Assembly: GCA_030295235.1 (NCBI GenBank)
Contig: AP026137.1
Span: 248,001-312,000, forward strand
DNA length: 64,000 nt
Source of the DNA: Fistulifera solaris
Taxonomy: Eukaryota
Direction: 5' to 3'
This document shows positions 1-40,680 of this stretch, one piece after another (positions within the stretch are counted from its first letter, which is position 1; every line of letters begins with the position of its first letter). The notes beneath the pieces were generated by a model that saw only the letters and a program-made list of their open reading frames with translations, did no database searches and was not told the origin of the DNA. The position numbers and the translations under genes were made by a program.

Positions 1-3000
1 TAACTTCCCGGTGCTCCTGGTGGCCCCGGTCGTCCTGGGGGACCAGGCATTGGGCCCGGTGGACCAGCAGCAGGTAAACGAGCTCCAGCAGACGCACCAG
101 GGTTGTGAACAAAGTCCATGAACTCTAAATAACTGTGGGTACCTCCTTGGAACGATGCACGGTCTTCGACCATAAACCAAAAGAATCGCCCTTCCCAGAA
201 AGCGTCACCCTCTTTTACGATATTTATTTTTGCACTGACGGTGTAGGGATCGGCAACATCATCACGTAATGCGTGCACGATGGCACCGAATCGAGTTGCG
301 AACGAGTCACCACTCGTCAACACCTTGATCTGATAAAAAGATAAAAAACAATCAAATTAAGTCTCTAAGGTTGAAAAAGAAAACAAAACAACGGAAGTCT
401 TGCTTACCTGCTGAGGATCAACATCGTCTAGTGAGTGGACGCCGAACAAGGATCCGATCACATTCATATCGGCCGTCCGTCCAACCCAGAGATACATTTC
501 AACGCCGTTGTCAAGCAAAAAGACGCCATCGCTGGTCAACCTTTCTACGCTAAGATTGGCTACAGGGGGTAGCAGAATTCGGTTGCGTCCCGCCGTTGTG
601 TCCTCGTCGCTTTCGTTCACCGAGTCTTCGCTAGGAAGACCCGCCGACTCGCCCATATTGTGAATCTCAAACATACGAGGATACACATAGTGTTTCGAGT
701 CTTCGACATACATAGTGTTCAACAAATGATGCGCCTGAATTCTCTCATCTGGATGCACATCAGTTCCACCACGAAACGCAACATTCTTCATCATTGCAAG
801 AGTGTAAAGGGGGAGCAATTGCAAATTATCCGGAATGGATTTGTCCTCTCCTGCTCCTCCAACGCTTTGATCCGCCGGAGGCACAGCGTAACCAGAAACC
901 ATGCGCTTATCCCCTCCCTTGGCAGAACGAATCACTTCCACGCAGACTTGTTGCATTCGCATGCGTGCTTGGTCCAGGCCTGTCTTCAGCGAGAAATCAA
1001 GGGCCTGCTTAGCCATCAGCGCCGAGCAAGCATCGCAATCAATAGAAGCAATAACATCGGAGGTCGACGAAGTGACGGGAAGGGCTTGAGTCATCACGCG
1101 AATTCGACGTTCACCCACAGAACTCGTGTACAAAAGCGCCGCTTGCACTGTGACAAAGCTCTGTAGCAAATTTTGATCATCATGCGCCAAGTCGAATGCA
1201 TAAATTGAATCCGTATTACAATTGGGCAATGCCATCAGATCTTGTCCACGAATGAAGAAGTTTCCGTAGAAATTGGTAATCTTCATTCCCTTAGTACAGC
1301 GAATACGCATCACAGCCTCAAAAGCAGTTGTTTGGGTGAGGTTCTTGTTCAACTGCTCTTCAAAACGCTGACCATCACGTTCTAAATTGAACGACGGATA
1401 AGAGTGAAGGGTACCCGCGGTGTATTTGGGTAAATCGCCCAAGGATGCCAAATCCATGTATTGATACGGAAACAAGTACATGTCTACCGAAATCTGGTTC
1501 CGACTAAATTCAATGGCGGTATCTTTGTACCATGTATTTTCTGGACGAAGAACTTTCACTTCGTTGGGTGTTCCCATCAAGGCGGGCTGTTCGCGTGGTT
1601 TCAGACTACCGTCTCCCATATTGGGCAGAATGGATTGAAAGACGCACATTTTGCCGCCTATATCCTTCATCACGGTATATGCAGCCTTGAGCGCCGATCC
1701 GAGACAAGACTGCGATACGACTGGGTTGGCAGCAAACATATCGGGCAAATTATCCAAGAAGGTATCCACCACGGCACGCGATTCCCGCAAATTGACCAAT
1801 AAGTGTTCTGGCAACGGAACGAAAAGGTTCTTCAAGTCCGAAACGACCAACATCTGCGGACTCGACAGATCTGGAGCCAAGTTGTAGTAATGAACCGAGC
1901 TGTCGAATGTCACAAATGCCACCTTGGTGCGACCAAGTCCAGGTAGATCATCCAAACTCGCTTTGATTCCCTGAGCGGCAGCTGCCAACATACCACTGCG
2001 CACCGCGGTCGCACTGACATCGAGTACAAAGAAGTAGGACGGTTCCTGCGGGGGTCGCACCATGTATTCGGCCGGAGCCACGTACTCCACAATCGCCTTG
2101 GATAACTCGGGTCGTTCCAAGCGATCCCGGCGCAATCCCTGTTCATCCAAGTGACAAAAGTACGCCGAGGGACAGTCGTTGACTTGACCGCAAATGTTAC
2201 AACGCCATTTGCGACCGTGTTCGGACCAACTGACGAACGCATTAATGTACGTACGACAGCGCTTACATCGCACAATTCCGGCCGTCCTGGGCACCACGGT
2301 AGCAACTTCTTCCTCATCAGGAGCCAAGGGAGCCAAGGGTCGAAGAATGCCACCCAACGGTACTTTGCAAGCCGTCGCTTGATTGGCCGATTGCGGAAGC
2401 TTTCCGCACGCCAATCGAAAAATGCGTTCGGGAATCTGAATGCTGTAATCGACATTTTCATTGACCGGTGCGGCACCCGGCAGAGCTCCCGGCATCATTC
2501 CCGGAGCGGCGGGTCCAGCCGGTGCCTGCTGGTAAAAGTTCGAGGGAGCCGGTTGCGAAGGGGCAGCCGGAGGTGCCGACATCATCTGGGGAGCGCCAGG
2601 ACGAGGTGCGGCGGGCTGAAAAATTTGGGGTCCCGGAGGAACAACATCGCCGCGTCCTGGAGGAGCTTGGAAGTCGGCAGGCTGCGGTGGAGGTGGTGCC
2701 CCAACGGCAGGAGGAGGCTGAAAACCAGGTTAGGGTACAGCCCCACCGGGAGGCCCGAACGATCCCGGAGGGCGAAACGTGTTGCCTGGAGCAGGAGGAG
2801 CACCTCTGAATAGTCGGTCGCGAAAGTAGAAAGAGTAAGGAAGTGAGAAAGGAGTACAATAGAAAAGACACAAATTGCTTGTCTTTTAAGCGACATATCA
2901 CGACACAAACGCTTCGGCATGACTTACCCGGGTGCACCCATTTGACCCGGCGGCGGCGGGGGAGCAAACCTTGCCCTGATTGCAACGACATGTTTCCCAT

Positions 3001-3145
3001 TGCTGAATTTAATTGTGTCGTCCCCTGAGCTTGAAAGGGAGGAGGAGGAGCAGCCGTACCTCCTGCAGGGGGGAGGCGGCTGAAACCGTCCGCCAGCGGG
3101 AGGCGGAACAAAACGTTGATTTGGAGGCGGCGGGAAGTTTGACAT
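1..3145 (-). CDS. SEC24: COPII coat protein Sec24; spliced, 3' end runs off the window
   Basis: Zinc finger CKRCRTYIN...WRCNIC, trunk domain PSYFFVLDVS, AFEAVMRIRC, RRIRVMT and gelsolin-like GVFLLDNG. Pro-rich N-terminus from ATG 3145. GT-AG introns at about 2806-2927 and 330-407; indels in the Pro-rich part. Confidence 0.95.
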
Positions 3146-3647
3146 TTTTGCTTTTCAGCTTAAACCAATGATTCAAAGGAGCGCGACGAATAGCAATGAC
3201 AATTATCAGGACTATATCTTTCCTAAAAGCAATTTCAAAGAGCCAATGCAATGTTTGTTTTGTTTCTCAACGGTACGAACGCACTGCGTGTTTTTTGCGA
3301 TGTCTCTTTTTATTTTTGACGGTCGACGGTCGACCGTCCATTTTGTTTGCGTTTGGCTTTACTTTTACGCCATAGAGTAAATTACGCAGTGTACACGGAG
3401 TAGTACAAAGTCATTCTTGGTCGGCGTACAGACGCATAGTCATTCAGCACACGATTACCGCTACGATATAATGACAGTCTGAAAGGGAAGCGAAAACTCT
3501 AGGATCAGCTTGATATTACACTTGAGGTTTAGGTCGACCGCTAACATGTTGCAACTCTTCTCTGTCCACAAAGCAAATAAAAACAGCATAAAAATCTACA
3601 AAGAAACACTTCCTACGAAAAAAGGGAAATCAATTATCTCGAGCATT

Positions 3648-4929
3648 CTATTCTAACGTTATGATAAATGGTATAAACGACATAAAACAAACTCCACATC
3701 CCAACAAAGCAGAAATGGATGCATTCGAACGACGATTCACAAGAGCCGACTCAACTACCATTTTCGACTTCTTCACCCGGAAACGCTTCTCCCGCACATG
3801 AAAGGCATACACTTGTTCGTGAACGATACACATCAGCGCATGTACTTATCAAACGAATAGTACCCGGGAACAACGGTGTCACGAGAAACATGTGGAAGAT
3901 CGTCGTCCACGTAAGAACGGAAATGTGCTGGATGGACCAACTCTCCAAGATGATTTCGGGAAGAACATATTTTCTTCCAAGGTATTTTCAACACGACGAA
4001 AGCTGCGATCGAATCTGCGTTCGCTGGCCGGCCTCCTTCTGCAACTCCAATGACTTCGTCATAGTACAGGCATTGCTTCTCTCCATCCGTCAACGAATGA
4101 TGACTGGGAATCTCGATGACAATAGACACAAGGACTGGCTTAAAGCTAAAACGAGAACGACGATCACTCGCGAATGGATGACGACGCCAGTGTCAGCGAT
4201 GTAGACGACGACGATGATGATGATTCTGAAGTGTCACAAAGAAAAGCACTGGTCAACACTGCCGAAGCTGGAATCTCCGTCCCCCGTTCACATGCACCCA
4301 CGACAACATCTCGTCAGACAACGTGTAGATATCGCCGTCAGCAGACGAAACAACGCGACGGATCACTTGAAACGAATGCATCAACAGCATCGCTTTTGAA
4401 GTCAGCTGGGAATGAAGGAAACACAGACTGCAAACCATGAATACTCGTCGTTCGTCGGGCGCTTGAAAGCAGGCTTCACGAACTTCTTCACCGCAGCCCC
4501 AAGTCCGCGAGCAATGCTGGAACGACGACGGGCGCTTTAGTGTCAACAAAGCATTCGAGCGCACACGCCAGCATCGCCGGGGCAAGAAGCAAGACTGCAT
4601 GAACGCACCGCAAGAGCTTCCTCCGCTGTAAGTCCTTCGCTAATCTCTGCCCACAGCAGCATTTCTTCAAGCGTTGGCATGTCCTCAATCGGCGAGAAGA
4701 CCCAAGCGCGCAACTCGTCGACACTGTCATTCTGGTCGATCATCACGTAAGATACATTGGAAACGAACGGCAAACTGTCCAGTTTTTCATCAACTTTCTT
4801 CAAATCGATGGGGACCTTGTAAGACGCAGGCGAGCTGCGGTGACGCAGATTCGCTTGCTTCCGCTTGAAAACCGACTTTACGCGACTCCGGAGGTTTCGA
4901 GAAGATGTTAACAAGCTTCTGATTTGCAT
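3648..4929 (-). CDS. Uncharacterised RVxF/HLGELxHPAxF family protein, subfamily A copy 1 (frameshifted in assembly)
   Basis: Starts MQIRSLL at 4929; RSRFSFKPVLVSIVIEIP...EKQCLYYD...RNHLGELVHPAHFRSY across frames. Close nucleotide paralog at 15100-16344. The 3' end is approximate. Confidence 0.7.
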
Positions 4930-5336
4930 TTGATGTCAATTGATTGATACAATAGGCAATAGTAAGTGTAAAGGCAACAAAACGGGTTTTTGTGAATTTT
5001 TTGCTGCTGCGGCGGCGCTGCTGCTGACGGACGACGTATAGACCGTTCTGAAAGAGTACCGCATTGCATGATTTCATATTTTCTTCATACATCGGAAATA
5101 CCTCAATGACTCTTAGCGGTACTTGTCGATCGTAGCTGGTAGTAGTCTAGACTAAAAGGTATAATAGTCTCTAAACTTGCAAACTTTAATAAAATGCTAG
5201 ACAAGTATTCAATATTTTTATAGTAAATAAACTACACTAAGGCAATTGTTGACGCAAAACGACTTTAAAACTCTTTTATTTTTTTAAGTTGGCAGTTGAT
5301 CATGATGAAACGAGACGAACGAAAGCAAAACGCATT

Positions 5337-6273
5337 TCAAAGCGAGAAGAACCATAACTCAACACAAACGATGCGAATGCGCACTAAATACCTTCGGAAA
5401 CAGCCTTGGATGTGGATGTTAGAGCAAATATAAAAATGCGGCGGTTGCAACTGCATTGATCGGCAAAAACCGACCACAGAGACCCACACACAAAATTTAT
5501 GGCTGTGTGGTAGAGTGGAAGATCCCGTGCAGCTTGGCGTCATAGAAGCGCTGCCGTACTCAAGCATGTAGTACATGAAGACCCTCCACGACGAGAAGCC
5601 CGGAACAGAAGTACCAGGGCGAACTTCAGTCAACAGAGCACCAGCGAGAGTACGGTAGGAAATGAGCGGGATGGATTAACTCTCCGAGGTGATTGTGAAA
5701 GAACATATCCTCTTCAAACACATTCTCGATGCAACGGAAGCTTCCTTCAAACGCAACTTCCATTGCGCTCTTATTCGCCTCCGCCTCCAACGTCAGCTTG
5801 TCAGTATACAAACGTTGCTTCTCTTCCACCGACATTGAAAAACAACTGGAAATCTCGATGACACTGGTTACAAGCTCCGAAGCAAAGGTGACGCGACGAA
5901 CACGACGCTGAATCAAGGATGTCAGGTCACTCTCGTTCGAAAGGACCGAACTAGCAGCAATGCTAGCGGTGTCGCACTCAGCGAAGTCAATCTCGTGTAC
6001 CGACGACATCAGCCGTTCTCGCGAACGACGCATCACTTCATTCGCTTCGATAGGTGACGTTAAAGCGAGCATGATATCTTCACGTCTCTCTTCTTCCCGA
6101 GAACACAGCACCGGAGACGACAAGTGCATCATTATCATACCTCGACTCAACCGCAGGTTCATGCGACATTCGCGAACGCTTTGCTCAGGACTTTCTGCTC
6201 GCTTTTCCGGGGCAGACGAGTTCACGTGACTGTTAATGCTTAAAGCAGCATCAAATTGGGTAGAAACTTGCAT
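5337..6273 (-). CDS. Uncharacterised RVxF/HLGELxHPAxF family protein, subfamily B
   Basis: MQVSTQ start at 6273; RRVRRVTFASELVTSVIEI...EEKQRLYTD...ENVFEEDMFFHNHLGELIHPAHFLPY. The shifted-frame continuation VPGFSSWRVFMYYM matches the VPGYYSF / ITGYCS block of the other copies. Confidence 0.75.
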
Positions 6274-6347
6274 TGTTTTGGTTGGATAGACGATAATATC
6301 GATTCTAGTTTGCAAAGGGGGTGTTTTTGTGTTTTTTGCTATGCTGC

Positions 6348-6814
6348 TGTTGAAATCTCTACCGCGGTATCAGGGACTCCACACACCCCAGACGAAAGAC
6401 TATTGAAACACAACTTTGCTCCAAACACTCGTTTACAGAATTATGACGATTTCCTACGATTACTTTTGCTCTCCTCTTTTCCACTGGTTTACGATCTGAT
6501 CTTGACTTGATCGTGCCAAGTCCATTTCTCCGATAACAACTTTAAAATAAAAACAGATAATTCTCCCGAGCCACCAGATTCTTCATTTCGCATTCCTTAG
6601 CAACAACCATCGTCCATAATTGCACATTAGATTCTTCCGTGATCCCAAATCCCCAAACATATAGTTCAAACACTTCCGAAAACTCCGTTTACGAATAGAG
6701 TCACTCCCAATAAACTAAACGGTCATTTCGAACCATTCCGACATTCGCTGACGTGTCCACTCATGACTGACAATCTTTCAGTCCGACACTCAACCTTGAT
6801 CACTCTCTTTGACA
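6348..6814 (-). repeat. 3' LTR of Copia element (467 bp)
   Basis: Direct repeat of 11192-11677; starts TGTTGAAA and ends TTTGACA on the + strand. Confidence 0.95.
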
Positions 6815-9800
6815 TCCTCCCTGTCGGCTGCTAAGATTAGCTGCGTCATGAGTCCCTCTCTAACAACCGGCACCAACAGATCATGGATTTTCTCTGTCAC
6901 ATTCTTGGTCTCCAGATCTGCAATGTTCCTTTCCGATCGAGTAAACTTCACAACCAGCCTAGCTTCTTCTTCCTCCGTTGCAGCCATCATTTCTCTGATA
7001 AAATGCATCCGGATATCGATGTGTTTCGTCCTATTCCCCACAACTTGGTTCTCCATCAAGAAGATTGCGCCCGTATTATCTTCAAACAACGTAGCCGGTC
7101 GAATCTTCACCTTCGGAAACAACTCTTCGAATAGCATCTGCAAAAACTTGATGTCCGTCGCACACGTAGATGCCGCGTAATATTCCGCCTCCGACTTCGA
7201 CAATGTCACCGCCGGTTGCAACTTGCTTGAAAAGCCACACAAACAACCTCCAATGGTAACAAAGTAACCAGTAACACTTTTCCGCGTCTCCTTGTTCGTA
7301 GCAAAGTTCGAATCCACCCATGCGTAAACCTTCAAATCAACAGGCTCGCGCAACTTCAAATCAACGTCCGTACTCTCGAGATAGCCAACCAATCTCTTCA
7401 TCGCTCTCCAATGTTCTTCACCTGGCGAATCCATAAACATTGCAAGTTCCCTAACCGCATTTCCACATTCCGGAGCTACTTTCCGCACCAGCCACATGAG
7501 ACGCCCGAAACTTCCGATACTGATCCTTGTTCACTGGTTCGCCTTCGTGCTTCACAAGCGATTCCCCTGGATATCCCGGTGTCTTCTCCGCTTTCAACGG
7601 TCCAATCAGCTCCTTCCAATCTTTCACTATCTCATCCTTGTACTCATCCATTCGCACTTCGTAAAACTCTGCTGCTTCATCTGACTTTCTCTCGCACCAA
7701 ACTCCCAAGTGTTTCTGAATAGGGCCCAACTCCGTAATGTTGAAGCGCTTCTTGATCTCTTTCTTGAACCAATTGATTTCCTCTTGGGGACCGGCAAGGA
7801 TACAATCATCGACATACACAACGATGATCAAAACTGTCTCGCCGTTCACCACTTTAAACCAAACACACGGATCCGCAGCGCTCTGAATAAGCCCCAGCTT
7901 CCTCAACTCGGCACAGTAGAGCATGAAGTACTCTCTTGGACTCTGAACCAAACCGTACATGGCTCTCTCCAATAGAATGATGTAGTCAATCAATTCCTCA
8001 TACGTGATGTACCCAAACTCATATAGCCCAAAGGGCCATTCAAGATACACCTCCTCTCTCAACTTCGGCTTCCAGAAACGCGGCCTCAACGTCAATAACT
8101 TCCGTCACCCACATCTTCTTCCACATGTATAACACAACTGCCAATACCATTCGAACCGACATATCCAATGCAACAGGTGAATGCGAAAGAGTAAAGTCCA
8201 CACCAGGGATTTGAACAAACCCCCGCTGCAAGACAAGTCCGGAAGCTTTGAAACGAATTCCTGTCGCCTCTTTCTTCTTCTTGAAAATCCACTTCGGTAG
8301 TGACAGGCTTTCGTCCTCTCTCCTTCATCTGCTTTCTAGGAACCATCTTCCAAGCATCTCTCTTGATGAAGTTCTCAATCTCCTTCTTCATTGCCTCTTT
8401 CCACTTGTCTGCATCCCGGACCAACCAAAGCTTCCTTGTAAGTTTTCGGTGCACCAGGATCCGACACCAACTCCGTATTCAAAACATAATGAAAATAACC
8501 TTCCGACACATCAATGGCATTGACCTCTCCTCCTTTGGCGTTCATTGTTGGGTTGTATGAAGTGTTCAGCCTTGCCATCTCTCTATTCAGTCTTTTCACT
8601 GTCAATTGCGTCTCTTTCGGCTGATTCGGTGCTGGAGTATTGTCCGCCGTAGCCTCAGGTACCAGAGCTTCCGTAGGACCTTCCACAGCCTCTTCGACAA
8701 CTTCCTCTGCCGCTTTCTCTTCGACAACTTTCCTCCCTGCTCCAGCATCGACATCTGCGAGCAACACCGGCCGAATTGTGACTTCCTCCCCAATTTGATC
8801 ATCCTTTAGGTCGACTTCCATTCCAGTTGCAAACATCCTCAACTCTAATGCAACCGAAGCACTCGAACCATGCCAATCTGCCCAAGTGACGTCACGCGAG
8901 AGAATGACAATATTTTCCTCCGGCTTGTAAACTCGACACGTATCGCCTGAATGCGAATCCGCGTATCCAACCATCACACATTTCACTGCCTTCTTCTCCA
9001 TCTTTCGCTGTTTGTTGCGTGAAAGTCACGTATCCAATCCGCCCCCACTGAACCAAGTGTTGCAATATCTTAGGATGCTCGCCGTACCACGCATAATCCG
9101 GGCTCGATTCCACATTCCGATTAGGGACAGCGTTATCCAACTTTGTTGCCGTGTGAACAGCCTCCGGCCACAACTTTCCTTGATGCTCATCCGGCAACTT
9201 CGCCAACATCATCGCAAGGGCCTTATCGCCGAATTGTCGTGAACTTTCTCTCAACAACACCGTTCATCTGCGGAGTATGTGGGGCAGTAAACTCCATAGC
9301 TATGCCCCTCGACTCACATATCTCCTGAATCTTTCCGTTCTCGCCTGCATTATCACACCGAATGTATTTCACGTTTACGCTCGGATCTCCCTTCAAGCGA
9401 TCAAGAAACAACGTCATGATATTCCCAATCATCGACTTCTTCAGTAACAAAGAAACTCCAAGCCTTGCGCGTGTAGTCATCCACCAATAAGATCCAGTAG
9501 CAACTCTGTCCCAACGATTTCTTGTAGGGCCCGCTGATGTCCACATAGAATCGTTCTCCTTTCGCGACTTTGGTCGCCGTTGACTTGCACACCGACTTCG
9601 CCGCTTTGCATACGCTGCACGCCTCGCATGTCTCCTTAGTTCCAGTCAACTCAATTCCTAACTGTTTCATGAGGCTCTTCAACGAACGTCGCTTGCATGT
9701 CCGTACATCTCGTGCGCCAGCGTTTATGTCCATCTTCACTTTCGTCTCGACAGCATGGACATTGGACTTCACAACACTGCCCTTCAGATAGTACAACCCA

Positions 9801-11133
9801 TAATGTGACTGAGGCACCGTCAACACACTCTTTCCCGAAGGGTCAGTAATCTTCATCGCACAACTGGTCATCTCAATCTTGCACCCTTGCTTCACTAGAG
9901 CCCCTGTACTTATGATATTCTTCAGCGAACGTCGGCACCACCTTGACTTCACTCAACTTCATAGTACCACCCACAGTAGCGAGCTCGAGTATACCCTTCT
10001 TGTGTACTTTGACTTCCGTTCCGTCACCAACAATCAAAGACTCCTTCGGTCGAAACAACATCGCGCAAAATTGTTTCATCAACAACAACATGGCACGTCG
10101 CTCCACTGTCGAGAAGAAACTTGTCCTTGTCTTCGACCTTCAACACTTCGACCGCACCAACTTGATGAACAACTCCACAGAACTCTTCGCCGCCTTTGCC
10201 GACCTCATAGCACATGCCCACAAACGTGTTCAACTCCTTGTTGTCCGACTTCGAATCCTTGCCATTCGACTTCTCTGGACACTCGCGACTGAAGTGGCCT
10301 TCCTTGCCACAGTTGAAGCAAACTTTCTTCTTGTCGCTCTTGCACTCCGCTGCCTTGTGTTCCCTGCTTGCCGCAGTTGCGGCACTTTCCCTGAACTTCT
10401 TCTTAAAGCCACCCTTGCCCTTCTCGACGCTTTTAATGCTAGATTTTTGTTTTCTTTTTTTTTCTTTTTTCTTTTTCTTCGCTTTTCTTCGTCGTCCTTG
10501 GGCTTGAAACAGCGCTTCCACTTGTTCCTGATTTCCTTCTCGAGGTCTTCAATCGAGGTCTCGTTGATCTTCCCGCTCAACTTGGTAATCACATCCGAAT
10601 ATTCTTCAGGAAGGTTGGCCAAGTAGTGGGCCTTCAACACGAAACTTGGCTTAACGTACTGCGATCCGATCGTCTTCAACTGATTCTGCAACCGATCGCA
10701 CTCCAAGAAGAACTTGTCGGGGTCATCCTCCTTCGGACGCCAACTTGCACCGACCAAACTCCGCCAACACTTCTGCCAAATCTTCCTCGCTGTTCCGGGC
10801 GTACTTCACATCCAAAAGCTTGAATGCCTCTCTCGCATCACCATCCGCTCTCTTGACAAGACCCAAAGGAACTCCTTCGCAAGCAATCACCAACAAGTCG
10901 ATGATCTCGAGATTGCTTCGATATAGCTCCTTGTCCTTCGCCGCCGCCGCCTCCCATCGCAACTTCTTTCGTGAGGAATCTCGGTCTTCAAGTCATCAAA
11001 CACACTGGTCCAACCTCGCTTCGTGATCAGCGACATCGTCTTGAACTTCCAATCATCGTGACGACTTCTCGGCGACCTTGTCATCCAACGGGTAGAAGGT
11101 CAAAGCCCTCATCTTCTCTCCCTCGTCGGCCAT
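6790..11133 (-). CDS. Copia gag-pol polyprotein (many frameshifts)
   Basis: Zinc knuckle CFNCGKEGHFSREC, protease FLLDSGATCH, integrase IRCDNAGE...TAPHTPQMNGVVER, RT LIIVVYVDD, RNase H WVDSNFA...RTKHIDIR...ADLETK. The last ORF reads into the 3' LTR. Confidence 0.9.
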
Positions 11134-11191
11134 CTTGTCTTGTCTTGTCTCGTAACTCTTTTTTTTTCTCAAACGCCCACGCTTTAAAGCG

Positions 11192-11677
11192 TGTTGAAAT
11201 CTCTACCGCGGTCTGTAACTGCTCTCGGCTATCGGGGACTCCACACACCCCAGACGAAAGACTATTGAAACACAACTTTGCTCCAAACACTCGTTTACAG
11301 AATTATGACGATTTCCTACGATTACTTTTGCTCTCCTCTTTTCCACTGGTTTACGATCTGATCTTGACTTGATCGTGCCAAGTCCATTTCTCCGATAACA
11401 ACTTTAAAATAAAAACAGATAATTCTCCCGAGCCACCAGATTCTTCATTTCGCATTCCTTAGCAACAACCATCGTCCATAATTGCACATTAGATTCTTCC
11501 GTGATCCCAAATCCCCAAACATATAGTTCGAAACACTTCCGAAAACTCTGTTTACGAATAGAGTCACTCCCAATAAACTAAACGGTCATTTCGAACCATT
11601 CCGACATTCGCTGACGTGTCCACTCATGACTGACAATCTTTCAGTCCGACACTCAACCTTGATCACTCTCTTTGACA
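11192..11677 (-). repeat. 5' LTR of Copia element (486 bp)
   Basis: Direct repeat of 6348-6814 with an extra 18 nt (TCTGTAACTGCTCTCGGC) and a few substitutions. Confidence 0.95.
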
Positions 11678-12508
11678 TGCTGCGGCGCTGCTGCTGTTGA
11701 CGAGCGGGGACAGAGCTGTTTGGTGGTAAGACATCGTTCTCTATGTAGTTGAAACCGGTCCGATTCATACTTGCAATAATAAGAGGCAGTTATTGATGCG
11801 ATGCGATGAAGAGCTACGATGATGCGATGATGGAGGATGAATGAATGAGAATAATAGGCGTTCAGAAAGGTTACCAGGTAATCCTCATATTCATTCTGCA
11901 ATTAAAGAAAAATGGCTTAGAGATTTGAGCAACCGATAATTTGTGGGGGATGCGGTGTAAGTACTCTGCTGCCCTACGAATTTTGCTCTTCGTCTGAAGC
12001 GACGAACTAGCCGTCCCGCAACGGTCTTCGGTCCAGCGTCCCCAAATTCGGTGGGCGATTAGCAGTCTGAGCTGGCAAATGCACGTAAAGGATACAATAC
12101 GGGAATTTTCATTTAGCCTGTGTTTAAGACGCCACAATACCTCAATAAGTGAATGATGTCAGAAGAAAGAGGAGACAGGACCCTTGACAGGACCTTGTTC
12201 ATGTTTAAGAAAGCGAAACCACAGCAAACGAGGGCAGGCCAGTTTGTAGATAAAGTGCTACAAGATCGAAGCATTATTGATAAGATCAGACAACATCATA
12301 CTGGTCTTCCCGTTTTGCAGGCTAGTGAGATTCTACTTTCTGCTGTAGTATCTACCTCCTTGCAACCAGTTTCACGGGCTGATCCCGACAAATCATCGAA
12401 GCTCAAAAAGGAATGAAGCAGACTACTGAAGGGCTAAAACGCTTCATCTTCACACTTTCAAACAAAAGTCGTTGCTACAGATTAAATGCTGGCGATGTGC
12501 GATAATAG

Positions 12509-15099: not shown

Positions 15100-16344
15100 A
15101 ATCTAAACGAAATAAAACAAACCCCACATTCCAACGAAAAGATATGGATGCATTCGAACGACGATTCACAAGAGCCGACTCAACTACCATTTTCGACTTC
15201 TTCACCCGGAAACGCTTCTCCGCACACATGAAAGGCATACACGTGTTCGTACCAATACACATCAGCGCATGTACTTATCAAACGAAGAGTATCCGGGAAC
15301 GATGGTGTCATGAGAAACATGTGGAAGGTCGTCGTCCACGTAAGAACGGAAATGTGCTGGATGGACCAACTCTCCAAGATGATTTCGGAAGAACATATTT
15401 TCTTCCAAGGTATTTTCGACCACGACGAAAGCTGCGATCGAATCTGCGTTCCGCGCGGTTTCGCTCTCCTTCTGCAATTCCAATGATTTCGTCATAGTAC
15501 AGGCATTGCTTCTCTCCATCCGTCAACGAATGATGACTGGGAATCTCGATGACAAAAGACACAATTTCTGGCTAAAAGTTGACACGAGCGGCAGCCCTCG
15601 CAACGGATGACGACGATAAAGAAGACGACGGCGACAACGACAAACATGCTGTAGTGTCACAAAAAAGAGCACTGGGCGACACTGCCGAAGCAGGAAGCTC
15701 GGTCCCCCCGTTCGCAAGCACCCACGACAACATCTCGTCGGGCAACGTGTTGGCATCTTCGTCAGCAAGCGAAACAGCGCACGGATCACATGAAACGTAT
15801 GCATCAATATCTTCTTTGAAGTTAGATGACAATGAACGGAGCACAAAATGCGAACGCTCAATGCTCGCCGCCGTCGGCACTTGAAAACAGGCTTCACGAA
15901 CTTCTTCACCGCAGACCCAAGTCCGCGAGCAATGCTGGAACGACGACGACACTTTAGTGTCGGCAAAGCATTCGAGCGCACAGCGCATCGCCGGGGCGAG
16001 AAGCAAGACTGCATGAACGCACCGCAAGAGCTTCCCCGGGTGTAAGTCCTTCGCTGATCTCTGCCCACAGCAGCATTTCTTCAAGCGTTGGCATGTCCTC
16101 AATCGGCGAGAAGACCCAAGCACGCAACTCGTCAACACTGTCATTCTGATCAATTTCCACGTAAGCCACATCGGAAACGAACAGCAAATTGTCCACTTTT
16201 TTATCTACTTTCTTCAGAGTCGATGGGGACCTTGTAAGACGCAGGCGAGCTGCGGTGACGCAGATTAGCTCGCTTCCGCTTGAAAACCGACTTCCCGCGA
16301 CTCCGGAGGTTTCGAGAAGATGTTAACAAGCTTCTGATTTGCAT
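15100..16344 (-). CDS. Uncharacterised RVxF/HLGELxHPAxF family protein, subfamily A copy 2
   Basis: Paralog of 3648-4929 including upstream sequence; ARVNF followed by an in-frame TAG, then PEIVSFVIEIP; ENTLEENMFFRNHLGELVHPAHFRSY. The 3' end is approximate. Confidence 0.7.
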
Positions 16345-16991: not shown

Positions 16992-18208
16992 TTAACGGAT
17001 GATGAAACGAGATCCAAACGATGGAGAAACGCAAATACCACTAGCACCGTGGTGAGATCGATTTGGAGACGCATCAACTTTCCAGATACACAACATCTCA
17101 TCCGAACCCATGGAAGCGAGCTTGCAACCATCGGGGCTCATATCCATTGTCAAGATGCGGCCTTTGTGCAAAGACAAACTCTGAATCGGCTCCATCTTTG
17201 GGTAACTCCACGCAATGACCACATTGCTTGGACTAGAGGTCGAAAAGCCATGGCTGGAATACAACTCCTGATGATGACGCCCCCCAAATCAACGAAGAAA
17301 CTTGACTGTTGGTAGAAACGCTCTTCAACATATTCCCGGAAATTGCACTCCACAGCTTGATGCAGCCATCGGCAGTTCCGCCGCCAGTCGCGAGCATATC
17401 GCCGATAAGGACACCACGCCAGTCCCTTGACAGCCGCCGTGCGATTCCAGTACAAGTCGAGGTCCGGCATTGTTGATCATGGAAGGATCCCAAAGATGAA
17501 CTGCGTTATCATTTCGACCTCTTGCAAGGCACGTTCCTTCTGCATTCCAGGCCAGGTTGCAGACTGACAACACACCTGACGATGACGCTGATCCAGACAC
17601 GGTCATCCCTGTGACAGACCGAGAACGCAAGTCGAGATTCGCGAATCTCACTGTTCAGCGCATCCAGCCGTCAACCAATTTCGCTGAATCGTTCCAGCAA
17701 AGTGCGCGCACTGGGCTTCTTGCCGAGGTCAAGGAGGTGCAAACAACTTCTTTGTTGCTGATGGTGTCGTACACGCGAACAAAGCCTGAACTCGTTCCTA
17801 CTGCCAGCAGGTGCGTCATACCGTCCATTGTGCACCACTTGACAGATCGAACGTAATTCGAGGTCTCGTTTTCGTCAAGGGGTGTAATACCAGCGCCCCC
17901 AATCTCATGAACGGCACGAGTAGACTCGTTCATGACGCATACAGATGATCCCAGAGCCACAGCCAGCAAATTGTCTTTACTCCAGCTGAGTGGATGCGTA
18001 TAGTAATCATTTACAATACCCGGTACATCGAGAATGACTTCAGGACGGGATTTGAGGACACGAGCAGCGTTTACAATGACCTTTTCAGCCGTCAAGGTCG
18101 GGAAGGACGCAAGAAGTCCATCAGCGAAGGGTCCGCGTAGCAACGATAGGACGACGATTACTTGTCGTGGAAGGAGAAACAGAGCCGTACTTTAAAAGAG
18201 ACTTCAAT
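16992..18208 (-). pseudogene. CDC20: Cdc20/Fizzy APC/C coactivator copy 1, 5'-deleted and disrupted by a Copia element
   Basis: ILDVPGIVNDYYTHPLSWSKDNLLAVALG, AVKGLAWCP, LATGGGTADGCIKLW and C-terminal IR tail (FGSRFIIR*). The N-terminal C-box region is absent; its promoter and a split ATG lie at 21874 onward. Confidence 0.9.
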
Positions 18209-21200: not shown

Positions 21201-21873
21201 AAAAAGTGGCCTGAACATTCGTTTCGACTTTTGCGCTCGGTGAAAACGCGAGTGTAGAACCAGTTAGAACCGGAGGAGGTTTCCTGTCATCAGCTTCGGT
21301 TTCGGGAAGACATATCGCCGAATAACGAAGGACGACAAAAAGGGAGTAAGTAGGGCACGTGTATCAAACAACTGCAAAAGACTGTACCAGATAGTGTAAA
21401 TCTGGGCTCGTAACCTCTCACGTATCGACGGACAGAAATTGGAAGTATTTTCTGTCAACCAAGTCGGTACGTTTAGCAACAACAGAAGAGGAAGTATCTG
21501 GTAGAGCTAAGACGATAAACAGCCAAAGTTTTTCCAAACAACAATATTATAAAGCCTTTACAAATCCGACAAATGATCAAGGTGGAACTTCACTGGGTGA
21601 TGGTTCCGCCGAGAATGTCACTTGTTATCGGACTAGGTCTTATTTTATCTTGAAATTCCGAGCTCACGTATGTGGCTCCAACATTCTTGTATCGCGTTGC
21701 TTGCAAACTTTTCACGCCTTCACGATCAATCCAAATCGTACAAAGACCCTTGGGCCTCTCCCATGAGGTTCCGTCCGAAGGGTTCCGATTTGGTGATCGG
21801 AGTTCGCATTAGGTCGTGAGGCTAGATTGGCTGAGTCCCTAGTAGTCTGCCCGCTATCCGCATATCCGTGACA
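18209..21873 (-). mobile_element. 3'-truncated Copia retrotransposon of diatom (CoDi-like) type: 5' LTR, gag, protease and start of integrase
   Basis: LTR-like segment bounded by TGTCA/TGACA (21285-21873); gag knuckle YYCAKCKRWNQTHGTGEH, protease VIWDTGAT, pre-integrase LLRLHFRFVH and integrase start PGQKVSMDHF. No RT, RNase H or second LTR. Confidence 0.88.
21285..21873 (-). repeat. Putative 5' LTR (589 bp) of the truncated Copia
   Basis: Right edge fixed by resumption of Cdc20 promoter homology at 21874; left edge inferred only from the inverted TGTCA terminus, as there is no partner LTR. Confidence 0.6.
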
Positions 21874-22030
21874 ATGGTGTGTTTTTTTGGTTCAAAGCAA
21901 AAATTATGCGGATGAAGGCTTGCTGCGGTACAAATTTATACGCCAGAGATCCGCTTACGTAGCCAAACGTACCAAGCTCCACGTAGGTTCTACATATAGA
22001 ATACAGACTGTATTATATCGTACCGGAACC
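21874..22030 (-). promoter_or_regulatory. Orphaned Cdc20 copy 1 upstream region
   Basis: Matches the sequence directly upstream of the ATG in Cdc20 copies 2-4 (ATGGTGTG...TTTTGGTTCAAAGCAAAAATT...ATGCGGAT...GGCTTGCTGCGGTAC on +). Confidence 0.8.
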
Positions 22031-22670
22031 GTACGGCACTTGTATAATTTCGTTGCTCTCACGAAGGATCCGCATTCAGATCAATTTAAAGCGCATTTGA
22101 AGTCTTCAGGTCTTCTTTTGTCGTATAAATGAAGCAACAAATCATTTTGGGTTGAATTTTGGTGTTTTCTGGGTGGTTGCGACGCTTGTTTCACTGTACT
22201 TGGTGTCACCGCTAGTAGCTTCGCATCATCATCGACCTACGCGATTCTTATGATGCTTCGCTGTGGAGTTGCCACACCTGAGGTCTAGCTACTAAATTGT
22301 TGACTGTTTGAATAAAGAATACGTGTGGAAGTCGAAGGTAACGGCTTTCTTGCTAAGCTAATAGATGTGTGTATTAGGAGGAGACGACGAAAATTTCACT
22401 CGTCAATAAAAACTACAAACTGATCAAGTAAAATTTCACGAAAAACAAATCTAGCTCTCTTAATTTTGTTAGTACGACGAGAATGAGATGGATGCAAGGC
22501 AATTTCATTTGATTTTATCAACAAAGCATTTTGATTGTGCTTATCAACGATAAGCGAACGAAAACGCAATACAAGAAGCAACAAAAGAACAGTCAAACAG
22601 TACAAACGATTCGCCACTGGGTGTCTTCGCCGCAGCAGTCTTGGATATGGATGTGAAAGTGGATGATTAA

Positions 22671-22779: not shown

Positions 22780-23682
22780 CGCCCAATAGGGTGTGCGAGC
22801 TGTGAAAGTGAAAGTAGTCGATTCGAACATTCGCCACTCTTACGACTTGGCTGCACGACGACGGAGACGCTTCGCTTCCACAGCTTCGATGGCTTTCTCC
22901 GCCATCTCGGGGGTGAAAACGGCGCTCGCGATAGCGCTGTGGTAGAAAGTGGTGTACTTTTCCAAATAAGCCAAGTAGTCCTTGCAGCGAGCAGCCAGTT
23001 ATTGGAGTGTCAACGGAAGATGTCGAAGAACACAGTACACGTAAGGTTGCAACTGTGCTGGATGAGCCAACTCTCCAAGATGAGTGCGAAAGAATTCATC
23101 TTCTTCCACCACATTATCCAGACAGAAACGACTGCACTCAAACTCACTTTCAACAAACCGCTTATCACCCTCCAGGTTCAATGTCCGTACGTCGCAATAC
23201 ATGCGGTCCTACTTCTCCTTTGTCAATGAGTAACGATTGGGGATCTCCTTAACGCCCGTCACAATCTGTGGCACAAAGCTGACACTGCGAGCAGGAGAAG
23301 AAGAAAAGGCTTCGTCGATTTTTCGTCAAAGCCCTCCGCAACATTCGACAAAGGCAGGACGGAAACCAGCGGTGCTTCCGGTTGCACAGCATTTCGATGT
23401 TAAACACGCAGTATCGACATCGGCATCTTGCTCGACGGGGAGTGCTTCATTCGTCTCCTCAATCAATGATGTAGGATACTCAGAAAGGTCACCAGGTTGC
23501 ACTAGGGGTGCGAAGGCATCGCCAGATTCAACTAGAAGACCTCGATCTTGACACAGGACTACAGGCGGCTGGTCTGCCGCCAAACAAGATTTCTCGGGGC
23601 TTTTTGTTCGCTGCCGCTTGCACGACGAATCTTCATGGCTTTGGGTACTCAGAGGAGAGACAGAATGCTCTGAAACTTGCAT
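22780..23682 (-). CDS. Uncharacterised SILK/RVxF/HLGELxHPAxF family protein, subfamily C copy 1
   Basis: MQVSEH...CKRQRTKSPE, PMSILRV, ARSVSFVPQIVTGVKEIP and REFE-like ESEFECSRFCLDNVVEEDEFFRTHLGELAHPAQL. Frameshifted; the 3' end is approximate. Confidence 0.72.
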
Positions 23683-27413: not shown

Positions 27414-29016
27414 TCAGCGGATGGTGAAACGGGAACCGAACGAGGGGGGAAACCGCGACGGCTGTACGGCGTCGAGTTGGAGCGGCATCAACTTTCCAAA
27501 GGCACAAATTCTCGTCTGCACCTATAGATACCAACTGGTTGCCATCGGGCTCAAATCCATTGACAAGATGCGATCTTGATGATACGAAAGTGTCTGAATA
27601 CGTTCCATTTTCGGGTAGCTCCAGGCCACGACTTCATTGTCCGTGAAGCCGTGGCCGGAAAAGAGCTCCTGGTGGTGTTGGCCCCAGATCAGTGAAGAAA
27701 CTTGATTTCCAGTACAAACGCTGTTCATCATACGTCCTGAGCATGTATTCCACAGCTTTATGCACCGATCTGCAGTGCCACCGCCACTGGCAAGCACGTC
27801 ACGCCGATAAGGACACCATGCCAGTCCCTTGACAGCCGCCGTGTGTGATTCCAATATACGACGGGGACCGCCGCCTACTTGGAGGCTTTTCATCATAGAA
27901 GAATCCATCACTTCGTCCACTCGCGAGACACGTGCCTTCAGGATTCCATGCAATGTTGCAAACCGAAGCCGACGATGAAGATGACGGTGATCCGCGCCGA
28001 GTCATTCCTGTCATCGAACGGCTACGCCAATCAAGACTAACAAGCTTTCCCGTATCGTAGCCAACTGTCAACCATTGTAAGGCATCATTCCAGCAAAGCG
28101 CGTGAACAGTACCTCCTCCAACATTGAGAGACGTGTGCACTTCTTTCTTGCACGTGGCGTCGTACAATCGAACTCCTGAGTCGGTTCCTACCGCTAGGTA
28201 GTGCGTCAACCCTTCAACTGTGCACCACTTCACTGCCCGAACGTGGCTCGAAGTTTCATTTCGATTGCGAGACACCTTCTTCAAGTCGACTAGCTCGTGC
28301 ACTGCATCTGTAGCCATGTTCATGATGAACACGACCGACCCAAGCCCTACTGCGAGGACATTGTCCTTACTCCAACTGAGCGGATGAGAGTAAAAGTTAC
28401 TCGCAATATCCGGTACATCAAGAACTGCTTCAGGACGGGAATGGATAACACGAACGGCGGTTGCATTGATCTTTTCAGCCGTCAAGATCGGGGAAGAACG
28501 CAAGAAGTCCATCGCGAAAGGGTCCGCAGCAACGATAGGACGACAATTGCCCCTCATGGAAGGAGAAACAGAGCCGTACTTCAAAAGAGACTTCAATTGA
28601 AGCTCATCATCGAGATCGCTCGTCGACACATTGCACAACGTGCTCAGCAAGTGTTTCTCGTAAACGAGTTTCGTCGAACGAGCTGCGGACGGAGGACCGG
28701 CGCAAGCAACACTGGACGATTCACACGACTTAGACGCAGAATTCAGCTTTCGACGACACAAATCCATATTCATGCGACGACGAGACGGAATGAAACGATC
28801 CAGATCGTCACGAGGAGCAGTTTGCGGCGTAAACAAACGACGATGATGATGAGCAGTCGAACGCATGCGAGGGACTGGAGTTTTAATCATCTGCGGAGTG
28901 CGATACGCGACAGTCAGCGCCGCTCCGCGGTTTCCAGGACGATTAGGAGTTGATAGATGAGTATGCGAAAGCATATCAGAGGAAAGCACGTTGTTTTGAG
29001 AGCAAGAATACACCAT
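27414..29016 (-). CDS. CDC20: Cdc20/Fizzy APC/C coactivator copy 2
   Basis: C-box DRFIPSR, WD40 repeats (VLDVPDI, HTAAVKGLAWCP, LASGGGTADRCIKLWN) and IR tail GSRFTIR* (TGA at 27414-27416). A small deletion near 27905 shifts the frame. Confidence 0.9.
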
Positions 29017-31543: not shown

Positions 31544-32477
31544 TCAAACACCAAAGATCCCGCACGCAAAGTAGAGTGTGAGCAGTAAAAGTGGAAGACG
31601 ACCGGTTCGAACACGCGCGACTCTTACGACTTTGCAGCACGAGCGAAGACGACGGCGGAGACGCTTCGCTTGCACAACTTGGATGGCTTTCGCGGCCCTG
31701 TCGGGTGAAAACGGCCCTCTGCAATAGCACTGTGCCAATCAGCCGTGTACTTTTTCATACAAGCCAGGTATTCCTCGCGTGAGCAATAACCGGTTATGGG
31801 AGTGTCAACGGGAAGATGTCCGAAAACATTGAACATGTAAGCGCGCGAATTGTGCAGGATGGGTCAGTTCTCCAAGATGTGTGCGAAAGAACTCATGTTC
31901 TTCCACCACATTATCCAGGCAGAACCGACTGCATTCAAACTCACGTTCCACCAACCTCTTATCACCCTCCAGGTTCAATGTCCGCACGTCGCAGTACATG
32001 CTGTCCTTCTCCTCCGTCGTCAATGAGAAACGATTGGGAATCTCCTTCACGCCCGTCACAATCTGCGGTGCGAAGCTGACACCTCTGAGAAGGAGAACAA
32101 GACAGGCTCGTCCATTTTTCGTCAGAGCCCTCCGCAACAATCGAGAAAGGCAGGACGGAAACCAGCGGTGCTTCCGGGCGCACAGCATGACGATGCTTCA
32201 TACGCAGGATCGACATCGGCTTCTTGCTCGACGGGCGTACTTCATTCGTCTCCTCACTCAATAACGGAGGGCACTCAGAGAGGTCACCAGGTTGCACTTG
32301 GGTCGCGAAGGAATCGCCAGAACCCACCAAAAGATCTCGATCTTGACTCGGGGCAACGGGCGGCTGATCTGCCGCCGAACACAATTTCTCGGGGCTTTTC
32401 GTTCGCTGCCGCTTGCACGACGAATAATCATTACTCTGGGGACTCAGAGAAGAGATAGAACGCTTTGAAACGCGCAT
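31544..32477 (-). CDS. Uncharacterised SILK/RVxF/HLGELxHPAxF family protein, subfamily C copy 2
   Basis: MRVSKRS...CKRQRTKSPE, KKPMSILRMKHR, RGVSFAPQIVTGVKEIP and EREFECSRFCLDNVVEEHEFFRTHLGELTHPAQF. The 3' end is approximate. Confidence 0.75.
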
Positions 32478-39352: not shown

Positions 39353-39599
39353 CTTCTGTTGGAAAGACGAAGCTCATCAACAGTCCATTTGTTTGACTCT
39401 CTTCATCTGCTTAGACTTATACGTACTAATAGGAAAAGTGCCTTAAAGTCGTCCCGGTATTCAAAACGTTATAGAAATTAGAGCCGCTACGACAATCAGG
39501 CACATAGTCTGCCCGCGGACCGTTAGCAGCAGCAGCAACTTTGACACAAACACCGTTATTACTGACAATAAAAGCCGTTCTCATCTAAAAACAACCAAA

Positions 39600-40680
39600 A
39601 TGCGAGTTTCAAAGCGTTCTATCTCTTCTCTGAGTCCCCAAAGTCATGAGGAGTCGTCTCACAAGCGGCAGCGAACGAAAAGCCCCGAGCGATTGTGTTC
39701 GGCGGCAGATCAGCCGCCCGTCGGCCAGAGTCAACATTTTGATCTTTTCTTTGATTCTGACGCTTCCTTAGCGAACGTGGAGCCAAAAGACGATCGTTCT
39801 TCGTATCTTCACTTATCCTCTGAGGGAATGGAGTCGATGGGAGAAGTGATGCCCATGGCCTTGTTCCAGGAGTCGTATCAGTCTGATCTCAAGTCGAAGG
39901 ACCCGCTCGACTTCAGCGCGGCCTCTGTTGAATCTGTTCGACCTGGTGATCTTTCTGAGTTTTCTCCGTCACTCATTGAGGAGTCTGTTGATGTTCAAGT
40001 GGCGCAGGAAGCCGGTGTCGATCTTGCGTATGAAACATCGAAATGCCATCAGTCCGCAAGCACACCTGGCTTCCGTCCCGCCTTTATCGAAAATCACGGA
40101 GGACTCGAGCAAGAATGACGAACCATCTTTGTGTCCCTTCTCGTAGAGGCGTCACCTTTGCACCGCAGGTTGTGGCGGGTGTGACGGAGATTCCCAATCG
40201 CTCTCACGTGGACGAAAGAAGAGAAGGAAAGCATGCATTCCGACGGACGAACATTGAAGGCGGAGGGTGATATGAGGTTCGTGGAGCGTGAGTTCGAATG
40301 CAGTCGGTTCTGTCTGGATAATGTCGTGGAAGAAGATGAGTTTTTCCGGGATCACCTTGGAGAAATGGTCCATCCAGCATATTTTCACGCTTATGTGCGA
40401 TGTTATTCCACTTCTTGCTTCCGATCCACATCCCGGGATCTTTACACGCCCCGAATTTCGAAAGGCGATGATGCATTACTCCAAGTTTTATGACGACGCC
40501 CGTTCTGCAAAAGCGCTTTCACCCCAAGGAGGCAGAAAATGCGATGCAAGTTGTGGGCGTCGGCGCCTTCGTCGCCGCCGTCGTACATCGCGATCGTAGC
40601 TGCTGTGCTTATTGTTGCGTTTGTTTCTGAAGCTTTGACAATGTTGGTAGATACGTCCAATCCATGCCGGGATATCCATT
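39600..40680 (+). CDS. Uncharacterised SILK/RVxF/HLGELxHPAxF family protein, subfamily C copy 3
   Basis: MRVSKRS...KRQRTKSPE, RKPVSILRMKHR, RRGVTFAPQVV and EEDEFFRDHLGEMVHPAYF. Near-identical to 43299-44390; the 3' end is approximate. Confidence 0.75.

What the first reader, a model, noticed from the sequence alone, without database searches (positions are those of the whole stretch)
5626..5910. Conserved, unnamed domain shared by all seven family members
Three subfamilies with unrelated N-terminal halves keep the same roughly 100-aa block: [R]xV[TSN]F-x3-[LIV]V-x2-VxEI-x5-[LMW][ST]xxEKxx[LM]YxD ... [ED]N[VT]xEExxFF[RH]xHLGE[LM]xHPAxF ... P?G[YF]. Protein-level conservation despite strong DNA divergence between A, B and C implies purifying selection. 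The residues after RVxF (V..V.EI, then an aromatic) resemble the extended phi-phi docking used by PP1 regulators, which is an inference. I do not recognise the HLGELxHPAxF motif from any named family.
Basis: partly seen in the sequence, partly recalled or inferred. Interest (0 to 1): 0.75.

Follow-up and report, generated by a model that had tools for sequence, protein, structure and literature searches.

The report
Diatom phosphatase-docking protein family
The conserved block is an unnamed module found in a large family of diatom proteins that very probably clamps onto protein phosphatase 1 and steers it, and it has been copied into long gene arrays in this species; binding is predicted, not measured.

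Summary
The block is real: seven copies lie in the window and 66 matches in the genome. It is not local: its profile finds 1,384 protein clusters, named ones in pennate and centric diatoms, with no Pfam, PDB or fold match. The focal copy's frameshifts are assembly errors; the intact protein is F. solaris FisN_10Hu324. The core is under purifying selection (dN/dS 0.17). The core reads RVxF, two hydrophobic residues, K/R-x3-W/Y, a long helix, then an invariant E/E/G/H-P mini-domain. A complex model with diatom PP1 scored 0.92 (best control 0.21; mark reached by 51 of 78 solved and 2 of 108 mismatched pairs), using the canonical RVxF pocket and the hydrophobic groove, as Phactr1 does; likeness to solved PP1 complexes may explain the pass. 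Best reading: a diatom-specific PP1 cofactor module (PP1 binding about 0.77). The Cdc20 link is local: the 17-copy C25 array has no Cdc20. New variant of a known kind.

The parts
5497..6273 (-). Focal gene (subfamily C), single exon, 257 aa when read from the intact database protein P0019 = FisN_10Hu324; frameshifted in this assembly
   Evidence: tblastn of P0019 covers 6273-5500; stop at 5499-5497; same sequence held by NCBI, JGI/IMG and Logan; contigs of two studies each show 14 gaps against the window over 4981-6390
5899..6273 (-). Mostly disordered N-terminal half, homologous but fast-evolving across the array subfamilies
   Evidence: pLDDT block means 43-53 except one helix at residues 73-91; shuffle test; dN/dS 0.38 in related pairs
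5662..5898 (-). Conserved core of about 80 residues (P0019 125-203)
   Evidence: alignments A2 and A5, column counts; models with pLDDT about 90
5884..5898 (-). RVxF motif (R125-R126-V127-T128-F129)
   Evidence: V/I/L in 135 and F in 133 of 138 rows; V127 and F129 sit on PP1 I169/D242/L243 and C291 in the model
5851..5862 (-). phi-phi segment (V137-I140)
   Evidence: V/I in 133 and I/V in 138 of 138 rows; pairs with PP1 I295-K297 in the model
5806..5820 (-). K/R-x3-W/Y site (K151, Y155), 20 and 24 residues after the RVxF Phe in the commonest form
   Evidence: K/R 130 and W/Y 137 of 138; offsets; both named in the interface
5746..5799 (-). Long helix (158-175) carrying the family's A-x-R-N-x-x-E-x-x-x-E string (R and N replaced in the array clade)
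   Evidence: residues 161, 164, 165, 168, 169, 172 named in the PP1 interface
5662..5715 (-). EE-x-x-F ... G-x-L-x-H-P-x-H hairpin mini-domain; H200 and P201 invariant
   Evidence: residues after 187 not named in the PP1 interface
5500..5649 (-). Two-helix C-terminal extension (V-P-G-F ... Y) found only in the array clade
   Evidence: about 24 of 138 rows occupy these columns; helices 201-215 and 228-247
3741..4929 (-). Copy A1, frameshifted in the assembly
   Evidence: several indels here are contradicted by contigs of two studies; P0033 reads through the domain
15170..16344 (-). Copy A2, frameshifted and with a stop after the RVxF motif
   Evidence: not covered by laid reads
22855..23682 (-). 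Copy B with an in-frame stop inside the core; possibly a true pseudogene
   Evidence: database protein P0046 matches it for 63 residues and begins just after the stop
31664..32477 (-). Copy B
39600..40503 (+). Copy B, identical to the 43.8 kb copy over 63 core codons
43299..44263 (+). Copy B
6368..11681 (-). Copia-type LTR element inserted 95 bp upstream of the focal ATG (context, not part of the domain)
   Evidence: 452-bp direct repeats 99.1% alike; RVT_2 and SH3_retrovirus matches
27417..29016 (-). Cdc20-like gene, one of four in the window (others at about 17.0-18.2 kb with its 5' part at 21.9-22.1 kb, 34.2-35.9 kb, 41.5-43.0 kb); context
   Evidence: WD40_CDC20-Fz matches; map

Best explanation
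The block is a diatom-specific PP1 cofactor module at the end of an otherwise disordered protein. Shown: the conserved string RVxF, phi-phi, K/R-x3-W/Y, helix, H-P mini-domain, under purifying selection, in a family spread over diatoms. Predicted: the string wraps round PP1 along the path used by Phactr1, neurabin and PPP1R15, and the helix lies along the hydrophobic substrate groove. Inferred: the helix and the invariant E/E/G/H-P mini-domain reshape that groove or hold a substrate, so the holoenzyme is active and selective, while the variable N-termini (basic K-R-x-R-T..S-P stretch in many array copies) set place and timing. An older set of seven dispersed gene pairs is kept; one clade gained a two-helix tail and was amplified in tandem arrays in this lineage. 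PP1 binding of any kind: about 0.77; this cofactor form: 0.55.
For: RVxF at the conserved place in 106 of 136 rows of A2 and 94 of 150 rows of A5, against 23 chance motifs in 25,961 residues outside the core. Order and spacing fit the published string: PPP1R15B F643, Y650, I652, R658, W662 (PMC4394352) against F, +7, +9, +20, +24 here, with the same 4-residue basic-to-Trp gap. Complex model: score 0.92 in three runs, best of 3 controls 0.21, mark reached by 51 of 78 solved and 2 of 108 mismatched microbial pairs (eukaryotes: 71 of 105 and 2 of 126), contacts agree 94% or more, partner pLDDT 64-68. The named PP1 residues include I169, D242, L243, R261, C291, F293 (RVxF pocket), R74, Y78, I295-K297 (phi-phi) and S129, R132, I133, Y134, K150, D194, which Phactr1's Trp and helix touch (PMC7599070; mapping; pocket assignments of the first two sets recalled). 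49 of the 51 named PP1 residues equal those of a human PP1 record. Nearest named Atlas clusters carry PF10488 PP1c_bdg (0.84-0.87, share 16-41%; lead only). dN/dS 0.17. The alone-folded core is extended at its N-end, as expected of a partner-wrapping chain.
Against: No binding was measured. Many PP1-RVxF complexes are solved, so the model may pass from memory; its controls held no RVxF decoy and the tool lists peptides and disordered chains as untested. The Arg-site residue is mostly Lys (103 K, 27 R of 138) and PP1 D71 is not named in the interface. In A5, 29 of 150 rows have I or L in place of the RVxF Phe. The most invariant residues (H200, P201, G196) are not named in the interface, so their role is unexplained. 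Whether the holoenzyme is active or inhibited was not tested. Atlas scores are below the 0.9 lead threshold and no Pfam profile matched.
Confidence: 0.55

Rival explanations
1. The module binds PP1 by the same string but acts as an inhibitor or sink: the helix and mini-domain block the groove, and the arrays raise dosage.
For: Same docking evidence. The interface names R96-K98, Y134 and the P270-D277 loop beside the active site. Many near-identical tandem copies suit a dosage role.
Against: The H-P mini-domain is not named in the interface, so no residue is shown plugging the metals. Phactr1, which uses the same PP1 surfaces, gives an active, selective enzyme (PMC7599070). Long retention of distinct paralogues under purifying selection fits specialised roles better (inference).
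Confidence: 0.22
2. The core is a small autonomous domain with another partner or a metal site built from its invariant Glu and His residues (E171, E175, E186, H200, H203); the RVxF likeness is incidental.
For: The invariant columns are E, H, P, not the RVxF letters. 29 of 150 rows lack the Phe. The core folds with pLDDT 89.5 alone.
Against: V/I-x-F, V, I-P and K/R-x3-W are kept together at fixed spacing in most rows; the PP1 model is confident and lands each on a known site; no metal-binding fold matched, though a miss proves little. Spatial clustering of the Glu/His residues could not be checked, as coordinates are not given.
Confidence: 0.18
3. The proteins are partners or substrates of the neighbouring Cdc20-like proteins and the block serves APC/C control.
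For: On C17 and C18 the 11 Cdc20-like copies are interleaved with subfamily B genes; an 11-mer upstream word is shared by Cdc20-like genes and by family genes on C25, C26 and C11.
Against: The C25 array has 17 copies and no Cdc20; Cdc20-like copies at C34 have no family domain in the 20 kb read; the same upstream word and leader also head five C27 loci, at least two before an unrelated gene; dispersed members sit beside unrelated genes.
Confidence: 0.05

Closest known systems
RVxF-phi-phi-R-W PP1 cofactors: Phactr1-4 (C-terminal PP1-binding domain)
   Same: Same order of elements at the C-terminus of a disordered protein: RVxF, phi-phi, basic residue, Trp, then a five-turn helix; the model uses PP1 residues that Phactr1 touches (S129, R132, I133, Y134, K150, D194).
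   Different: No sequence match to any PDB chain of this kind and no RPEL match in Pfam for the 17 A1 members or P0019. Trp lies at F+24, not F+20; the basic residue is mostly Lys; an H-P hairpin mini-domain follows that has no fold match.
PPP1R15A/B (GADD34/CReP) and viral mimics, Pfam PF10488 PP1c_bdg
   Same: phi-phi at F+7 and F+9 and a 4-residue basic-to-Trp gap; nearest named clusters by language-model features.
   Different: No PF10488 profile match in 17 of 17 A1 members at E 10 or P0019; different C-terminal part; no evidence for eIF2-alpha or actin binding.
Neurabin/spinophilin and PNUTS
   Same: [quoted passage not shown]
   Different: No PDZ or other Pfam domain common to the 138 members; no sequence match.
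Fistulifera solaris hypothetical proteins FisN_10Hu324, FisN_10Lu313, FisN_9Lu169, FisN_9Hu098
   Same: These are the family's own database entries.
   Different: They carry no annotation.
   Same: Also an unnamed, large diatom family with an RVxF-type string (unchecked note).
   Different: The 5 CSRNP_N matches in this genome lie on C27, C29, C32, C33 and C50, at none of this family's places; strict SILK occurs in only 4 of 150 rows here.

Membership tests
RVxF-phi-phi-R-W PP1 cofactors (functional class) | RVxF motif in an extended, unfolded context | tested here: met
   106 of 136 rows of A2, 94 of 150 of A5; extended in both models; docks in the RVxF pocket in the model
RVxF-phi-phi-R-W PP1 cofactors (functional class) | phi-phi strand added to PP1 beta-14, 5-9 residues after the Phe | tested here: met
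   V at +6, I at +9 conserved; pairs 137/314 and 139-140/316 in the model; prediction only
RVxF-phi-phi-R-W PP1 cofactors (functional class) | Arg motif salt-bridged to PP1 D71 | tested here: inconclusive
   Candidate positions are R/H at +12 and K/R at +20; the focal copy has C143 and K151; D71 is not named in the interface, which is no proof of absence
RVxF-phi-phi-R-W PP1 cofactors (functional class) | Trp motif on PP1 I133/Y134 | tested here: inconclusive
   W in 137 of 150 rows, Tyr in the focal copy; Y155, I133 and Y134 are all named in the interface but the pair is not among those listed
RVxF-phi-phi-R-W PP1 cofactors (functional class) | Measured PP1 binding that depends on these motifs | not testable with these tools
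   needs a binding assay
PF10488 PP1c_bdg / PPP1R15 | Profile match above the family cut-off | tested here: not met
   no match in 17 of 17 A1 members at E 10, none for P0019; the genome search found nothing but also rang nowhere in its controls
PF10488 PP1c_bdg / PPP1R15 | eIF2-alpha dephosphorylation with G-actin | not testable with these tools
   needs an assay
Phactr family | RPEL repeats and sequence likeness of the PP1-binding domain | tested here: not met
   no Pfam match for P0019; profiles A1 and A2 found 0 and 1 PDB sequence (a myosin peptide, E 0.85) at E 10
Phactr family | Fold likeness of the bound C-terminal domain | tested here: inconclusive
   best Z 3.6 and 2.9, no Foldseek match at E 0.001; models were of the free chain
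CSRNP_N (PF16019) | Profile match | tested here: not met
   5 genome matches, none at this family's places; none in the 17 A1 members

The most novel reading that the evidence does not exclude
Diatoms carry their own phylum-wide PP1 specificity module, with a small fold not yet seen, and in this lineage its array clade and the divergent Cdc20 copies are switched on together through a shared upstream element, forming a stage-specific division-exit programme (PP1 cofactors plus APC/C activators) that was amplified as a set.
Probability: 0.15. Interest if true: 0.75.

Novelty: new variant of a known kind. Interest (0 to 1): 0.55.

Why it matters
PP1 gets its specificity from cofactors, and only four families are described as using the full RVxF-phi-phi-R-W path (PMC12185105). 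Two full-text searches found no paper on such cofactors in diatoms. A family with over a thousand sequence clusters, conserved single-copy members and a confident PP1 model gives a defined domain to name and a direct test (binding, PP1-fusion phosphoproteomics, knock-out in a model diatom). If right, it is an independent solution to groove remodelling and an entry to diatom phospho-signalling. It does not overturn a principle: the working logic is known.

Tried and rejected
Pfam: nothing for P0001, 4 stray families in 17 members, no family in more than 2 of 138 members; 25 of 68 families were shown. PDB by sequence: 0 and 1 weak match. Fold searches of the full model and of the core alone in pdb, pdb_via_wide and viral: no match at E 0.001, best Z 3.6 and 2.9; a miss does not show a new fold. 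Atlas structure search: all TM by query under 0.3. Expression: no RNA holder listed; X1 covers all 30 bins including intergenic and LTR DNA and so behaves like DNA; X5 covers only the Sec24 gene; neither bears on expression. PF10488 genome search rang nowhere and is uninformative. Pseudogene-cluster reading for the focal copy rejected (both copies of one PP1 gene, L051 and L052, also show frame breaks at runs of T). 'Unrelated N-termini' rejected. A general tie to Cdc20 rejected. The 16-mer upstream pattern (8 matches, control 0) was written from the sequences it found and is no test. The foraminifer record with the domain (Nonionella stella) was set aside: this host keeps diatom plastids (recalled), so the record may be of diatom origin. 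Paper searches gave nothing on this family (listings only). Earlier-findings look-ups near the place and by sequence were blank.

Full report
Observation. The finding lies in an open frame on the - strand, 5626-6369. A six-frame motif scan finds HLGE at seven places, the RxV[TSN]F...V..V.EI string at six of them and HPAxF at six; tblastn of the focal frame links all seven copies at E 1e-7 to 1e-20. All seven are interrupted by frameshifts or stops in this assembly.

The breaks in the focal copy are assembly errors. Contigs from two studies laid on 300-6900 each show 14 gaps over 4981-6390 and only 3-4 other letters (the list of single indels was cut, so the exact site near 5650 was not displayed). 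A 257-aa protein, P0019, matches the focal frame wherever it is in register, continues through the false stop to 5497, and is held letter for letter by NCBI (FisN_10Hu324, Fistulifera solaris), JGI/IMG and Logan. As a control, both copies of one PP1 gene in this assembly (L051, L052) break frame at runs of T. Indels in copy A1 are likewise contradicted by the contigs. Some copies may be truly dead: the 23-kb copy has a stop inside the core and a database protein identical for 63 residues begins just after it; the C18 counterpart of the focal copy is 65% alike and has lost the H of H-P.

Extent in the genome. The window is G000:C17:248001-312000. The focal core gave 66 matches among 69 candidates, some being pieces of one gene, and a lower bound. 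A map of fetched regions shows 9 copies on C17, 9 on C18 and 17 on C25; C26 carries a matching array and C11/C12 one pair. Seven further pairs are dispersed: four found (C1/C2, three on C5/C6) and three more (C11/C12, C15/C16, C23/C24). These dispersed genes end soon after H-P-x-H and lack the tail.

Extent in nature. A profile of 17 cores found 1,384 cluster representatives at E 0.001, 621 at 1e-10; 150 were listed. The nearest Atlas clusters (0.93-0.94) are unnamed, 90-100% eukaryote, commonest diatoms. One foraminifer record was set aside (see Tried and rejected). In a FastTree tree of 196 cores, midpoint-rooted, the array copies and their tail-bearing relatives form a group of 35 tips with weak support, 0.67. 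No Pfam, PDB sequence or fold match was found.

Selection. Nei-Gojobori counts on 8 between-contig pairs (one partial; the C25/C26 pairs were matched by subfamily, not proven positional partners) give dN/dS 0.17 (0.11-0.25) for 619 core codons, 0.38 (0.30-0.47) for 860 N-terminal codons and 0.30 (0.18-0.48) for 264 tail codons; the core value per pair was 0.00-0.28. Among window copies, single-frame stretches gave 19 of 20 finite values at 0.08-0.62 and one at 0.93 (33 codons); cross-subfamily dS is near saturation. The N-terminal halves are not unrelated: focal against B z 9.2, against an A-like protein z 8.0, while against five dispersed-type proteins z was -0.9 to 1.1; seven of 15 other array-clade comparisons reached 0 of 200 shuffles. 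So the array genes are whole-gene paralogues with a fast N-terminus.

Anatomy. In 138 aligned proteins: V/I/L 135 and F 133 at the RVxF places; V/I 133; I/V 138 followed by P 131; R/H 129; K/R 130; W/Y 137; R 114, N 118, E 138, E/D 138; E 125; G 134; H 138, P 138, H 116. In a second set of 150 the commonest offsets from the Phe are +6, +9, +12, +20, +24, +36, +40 and +68. A full RVxF was present in 106 of 136 and 94 of 150 rows, against 23 motifs in 25,961 residues outside the core; 29 of 150 rows have I or L for the Phe. AlphaFold2 gives a disordered N-terminus, an extended RVxF/phi-phi stretch, a short helix, a long helix (158-175), a small hairpin and the H-P turn, pLDDT about 90, pTM 0.54-0.60.

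PP1. The genome has three pairs of PP1-type genes; P0216 is 99% identical to one of them and supplied the full chain. ESMFold2 on P0216 24-320 with P0019 116-250 scored 0.92 in all three runs; best of three controls 0.21; the mark was reached by 51 of 78 solved and 2 of 108 mismatched microbial pairs, and by 71 of 105 and 2 of 126 eukaryote pairs; runs agree in 94% or more of contacts; partner pLDDT 64-68; my alignments were not used. With an offset of 19 to human numbering (anchor recalled), V127 touches I169, D242, L243; F129 touches C291; residues 133-140 run along F293-K297; and the interface also names R74, Y78, S129, R132, I133, Y134, K150, D194. Phactr1's Trp and helix contact I133, R132, K150, S129, D194 and Y134 (PMC7599070: 12 passages and section 7 read). 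PPP1R15B has F643, Y650, I652, R658, W662 (PMC4394352: 8 passages read). PMC12185105 (11 passages read) names four families in this class and shows that neurabin's helix leads to a substrate-recruiting domain. I saw no supplements or figures, where the published alignments lie. Against: the model may pass from memory of solved PP1 complexes, no RVxF decoy was run, D71 and W149 are not named, and residues after 187 are not named.

How it most likely works. Shown: a conserved, selected string and its family. Predicted: docking on PP1 along the RVxF, phi-phi, Trp-site path with a helix on the hydrophobic groove. Inferred: the helix and the H-P mini-domain shape or recruit substrates, the N-terminus localises, and the array clade's tail adds a further surface. 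I put PP1 binding at about 0.77, split 0.55 cofactor and 0.22 inhibitor; another partner or metal site 0.18; a Cdc20 partner 0.05.

Cdc20. The window holds four Cdc20-like genes; C17 has 6 and C18 5, interleaved with B genes, but C25 has none, and further Cdc20-like copies on C34/C35 have no family core in the 20 kb of C34 read. The link is a locally duplicated cassette. An upstream 11-mer occurs 60 times against 41 for the reversed control; 9 of the 60 head Cdc20-like genes and about 12 lie at family genes on C11, C25 and C26 (positions compared); five more head C27 loci. This hints at a reused promoter module; it was chosen after seeing the sequences.

Membership and novelty. It works like an RVxF-phi-phi-R-W cofactor; it is not a member of Phactr, PPP1R15/PF10488 or CSRNP_N by profile. 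Searches for diatom with RVxF and protein phosphatase 1 gave 0 papers and for RVxF with diatoms 1 unrelated review (listing only); the library lacks most subscription journals. An earlier unchecked note describes another large diatom PP1-binding family; it appears distinct. Verdict: new variant of a known kind, interest 0.55.

Noticed in passing
window 16995-18208 with 21871-22129, 27417-29016, 34192-35861, 41464-43041; G000 C17 229-291 kb, C18 161-214 kb, C34 124-144 kb, C35 136-190 kb: Large expansion of divergent Cdc20-like genes (6 on C17, 5 on C18, several on C34/C35) that keep a DRFIPS box and an IR tail, besides three ordinary pairs on C3/C4 and C40/C41.
   Followed up: partly
window 6368-11681: Young Copia-type element (LTRs 99.1% alike) sits 95 bp upstream of the focal ATG, inside the CAG-rich leader shared by the family; it may alter expression.
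   Followed up: partly
window 18208-21871: A 3.6-kb stretch splits one Cdc20-like copy; it holds two unnamed frames (18121-18921, 20523-21263) with no Pfam match and no counterpart on C18.
   Followed up: no
upstream of Cdc20-like genes (C17, C18), family genes (C11, C25, C26) and L101-L104 (C27): A shared upstream 11-mer; the C27 loci also carry the Cdc20-like leader up to the ATG, at least two in front of an unrelated gene, suggesting a reused promoter module.
   Followed up: partly
G000:C18:183448-183937 (L043): Counterpart of the focal copy is only 65% alike, lies on the opposite side of its neighbours and has lost invariant residues: probably a pseudogene.
   Followed up: partly
P0014, P0015, P0023, P0057, P0090: Some relatives carry two cores in tandem.
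   Followed up: no
alignment A5: A subgroup of 29 of 150 relatives has I or L in place of the RVxF Phe; they may bind PP1 differently or not at all.
   Followed up: no
L053, L054 (C30, C31): An intronless, divergent PP1-like gene pair (70% identical to the main PP1 over the core) beside two ordinary pairs.
   Followed up: no
L051, L052 (C5, C6): Both copies of a PP1 gene show the same two frame breaks at runs of T, pointing to systematic indel error in the assembly.
   Followed up: partly
window 39548-40699 and 43243-44403: Two B copies are 93.7% alike overall and identical over 63 core codons: recent duplication or gene conversion.
   Followed up: no
window 48570-50603 and 50927-52656: Tandem pair of O-fucosyltransferase-family genes.
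   Followed up: no
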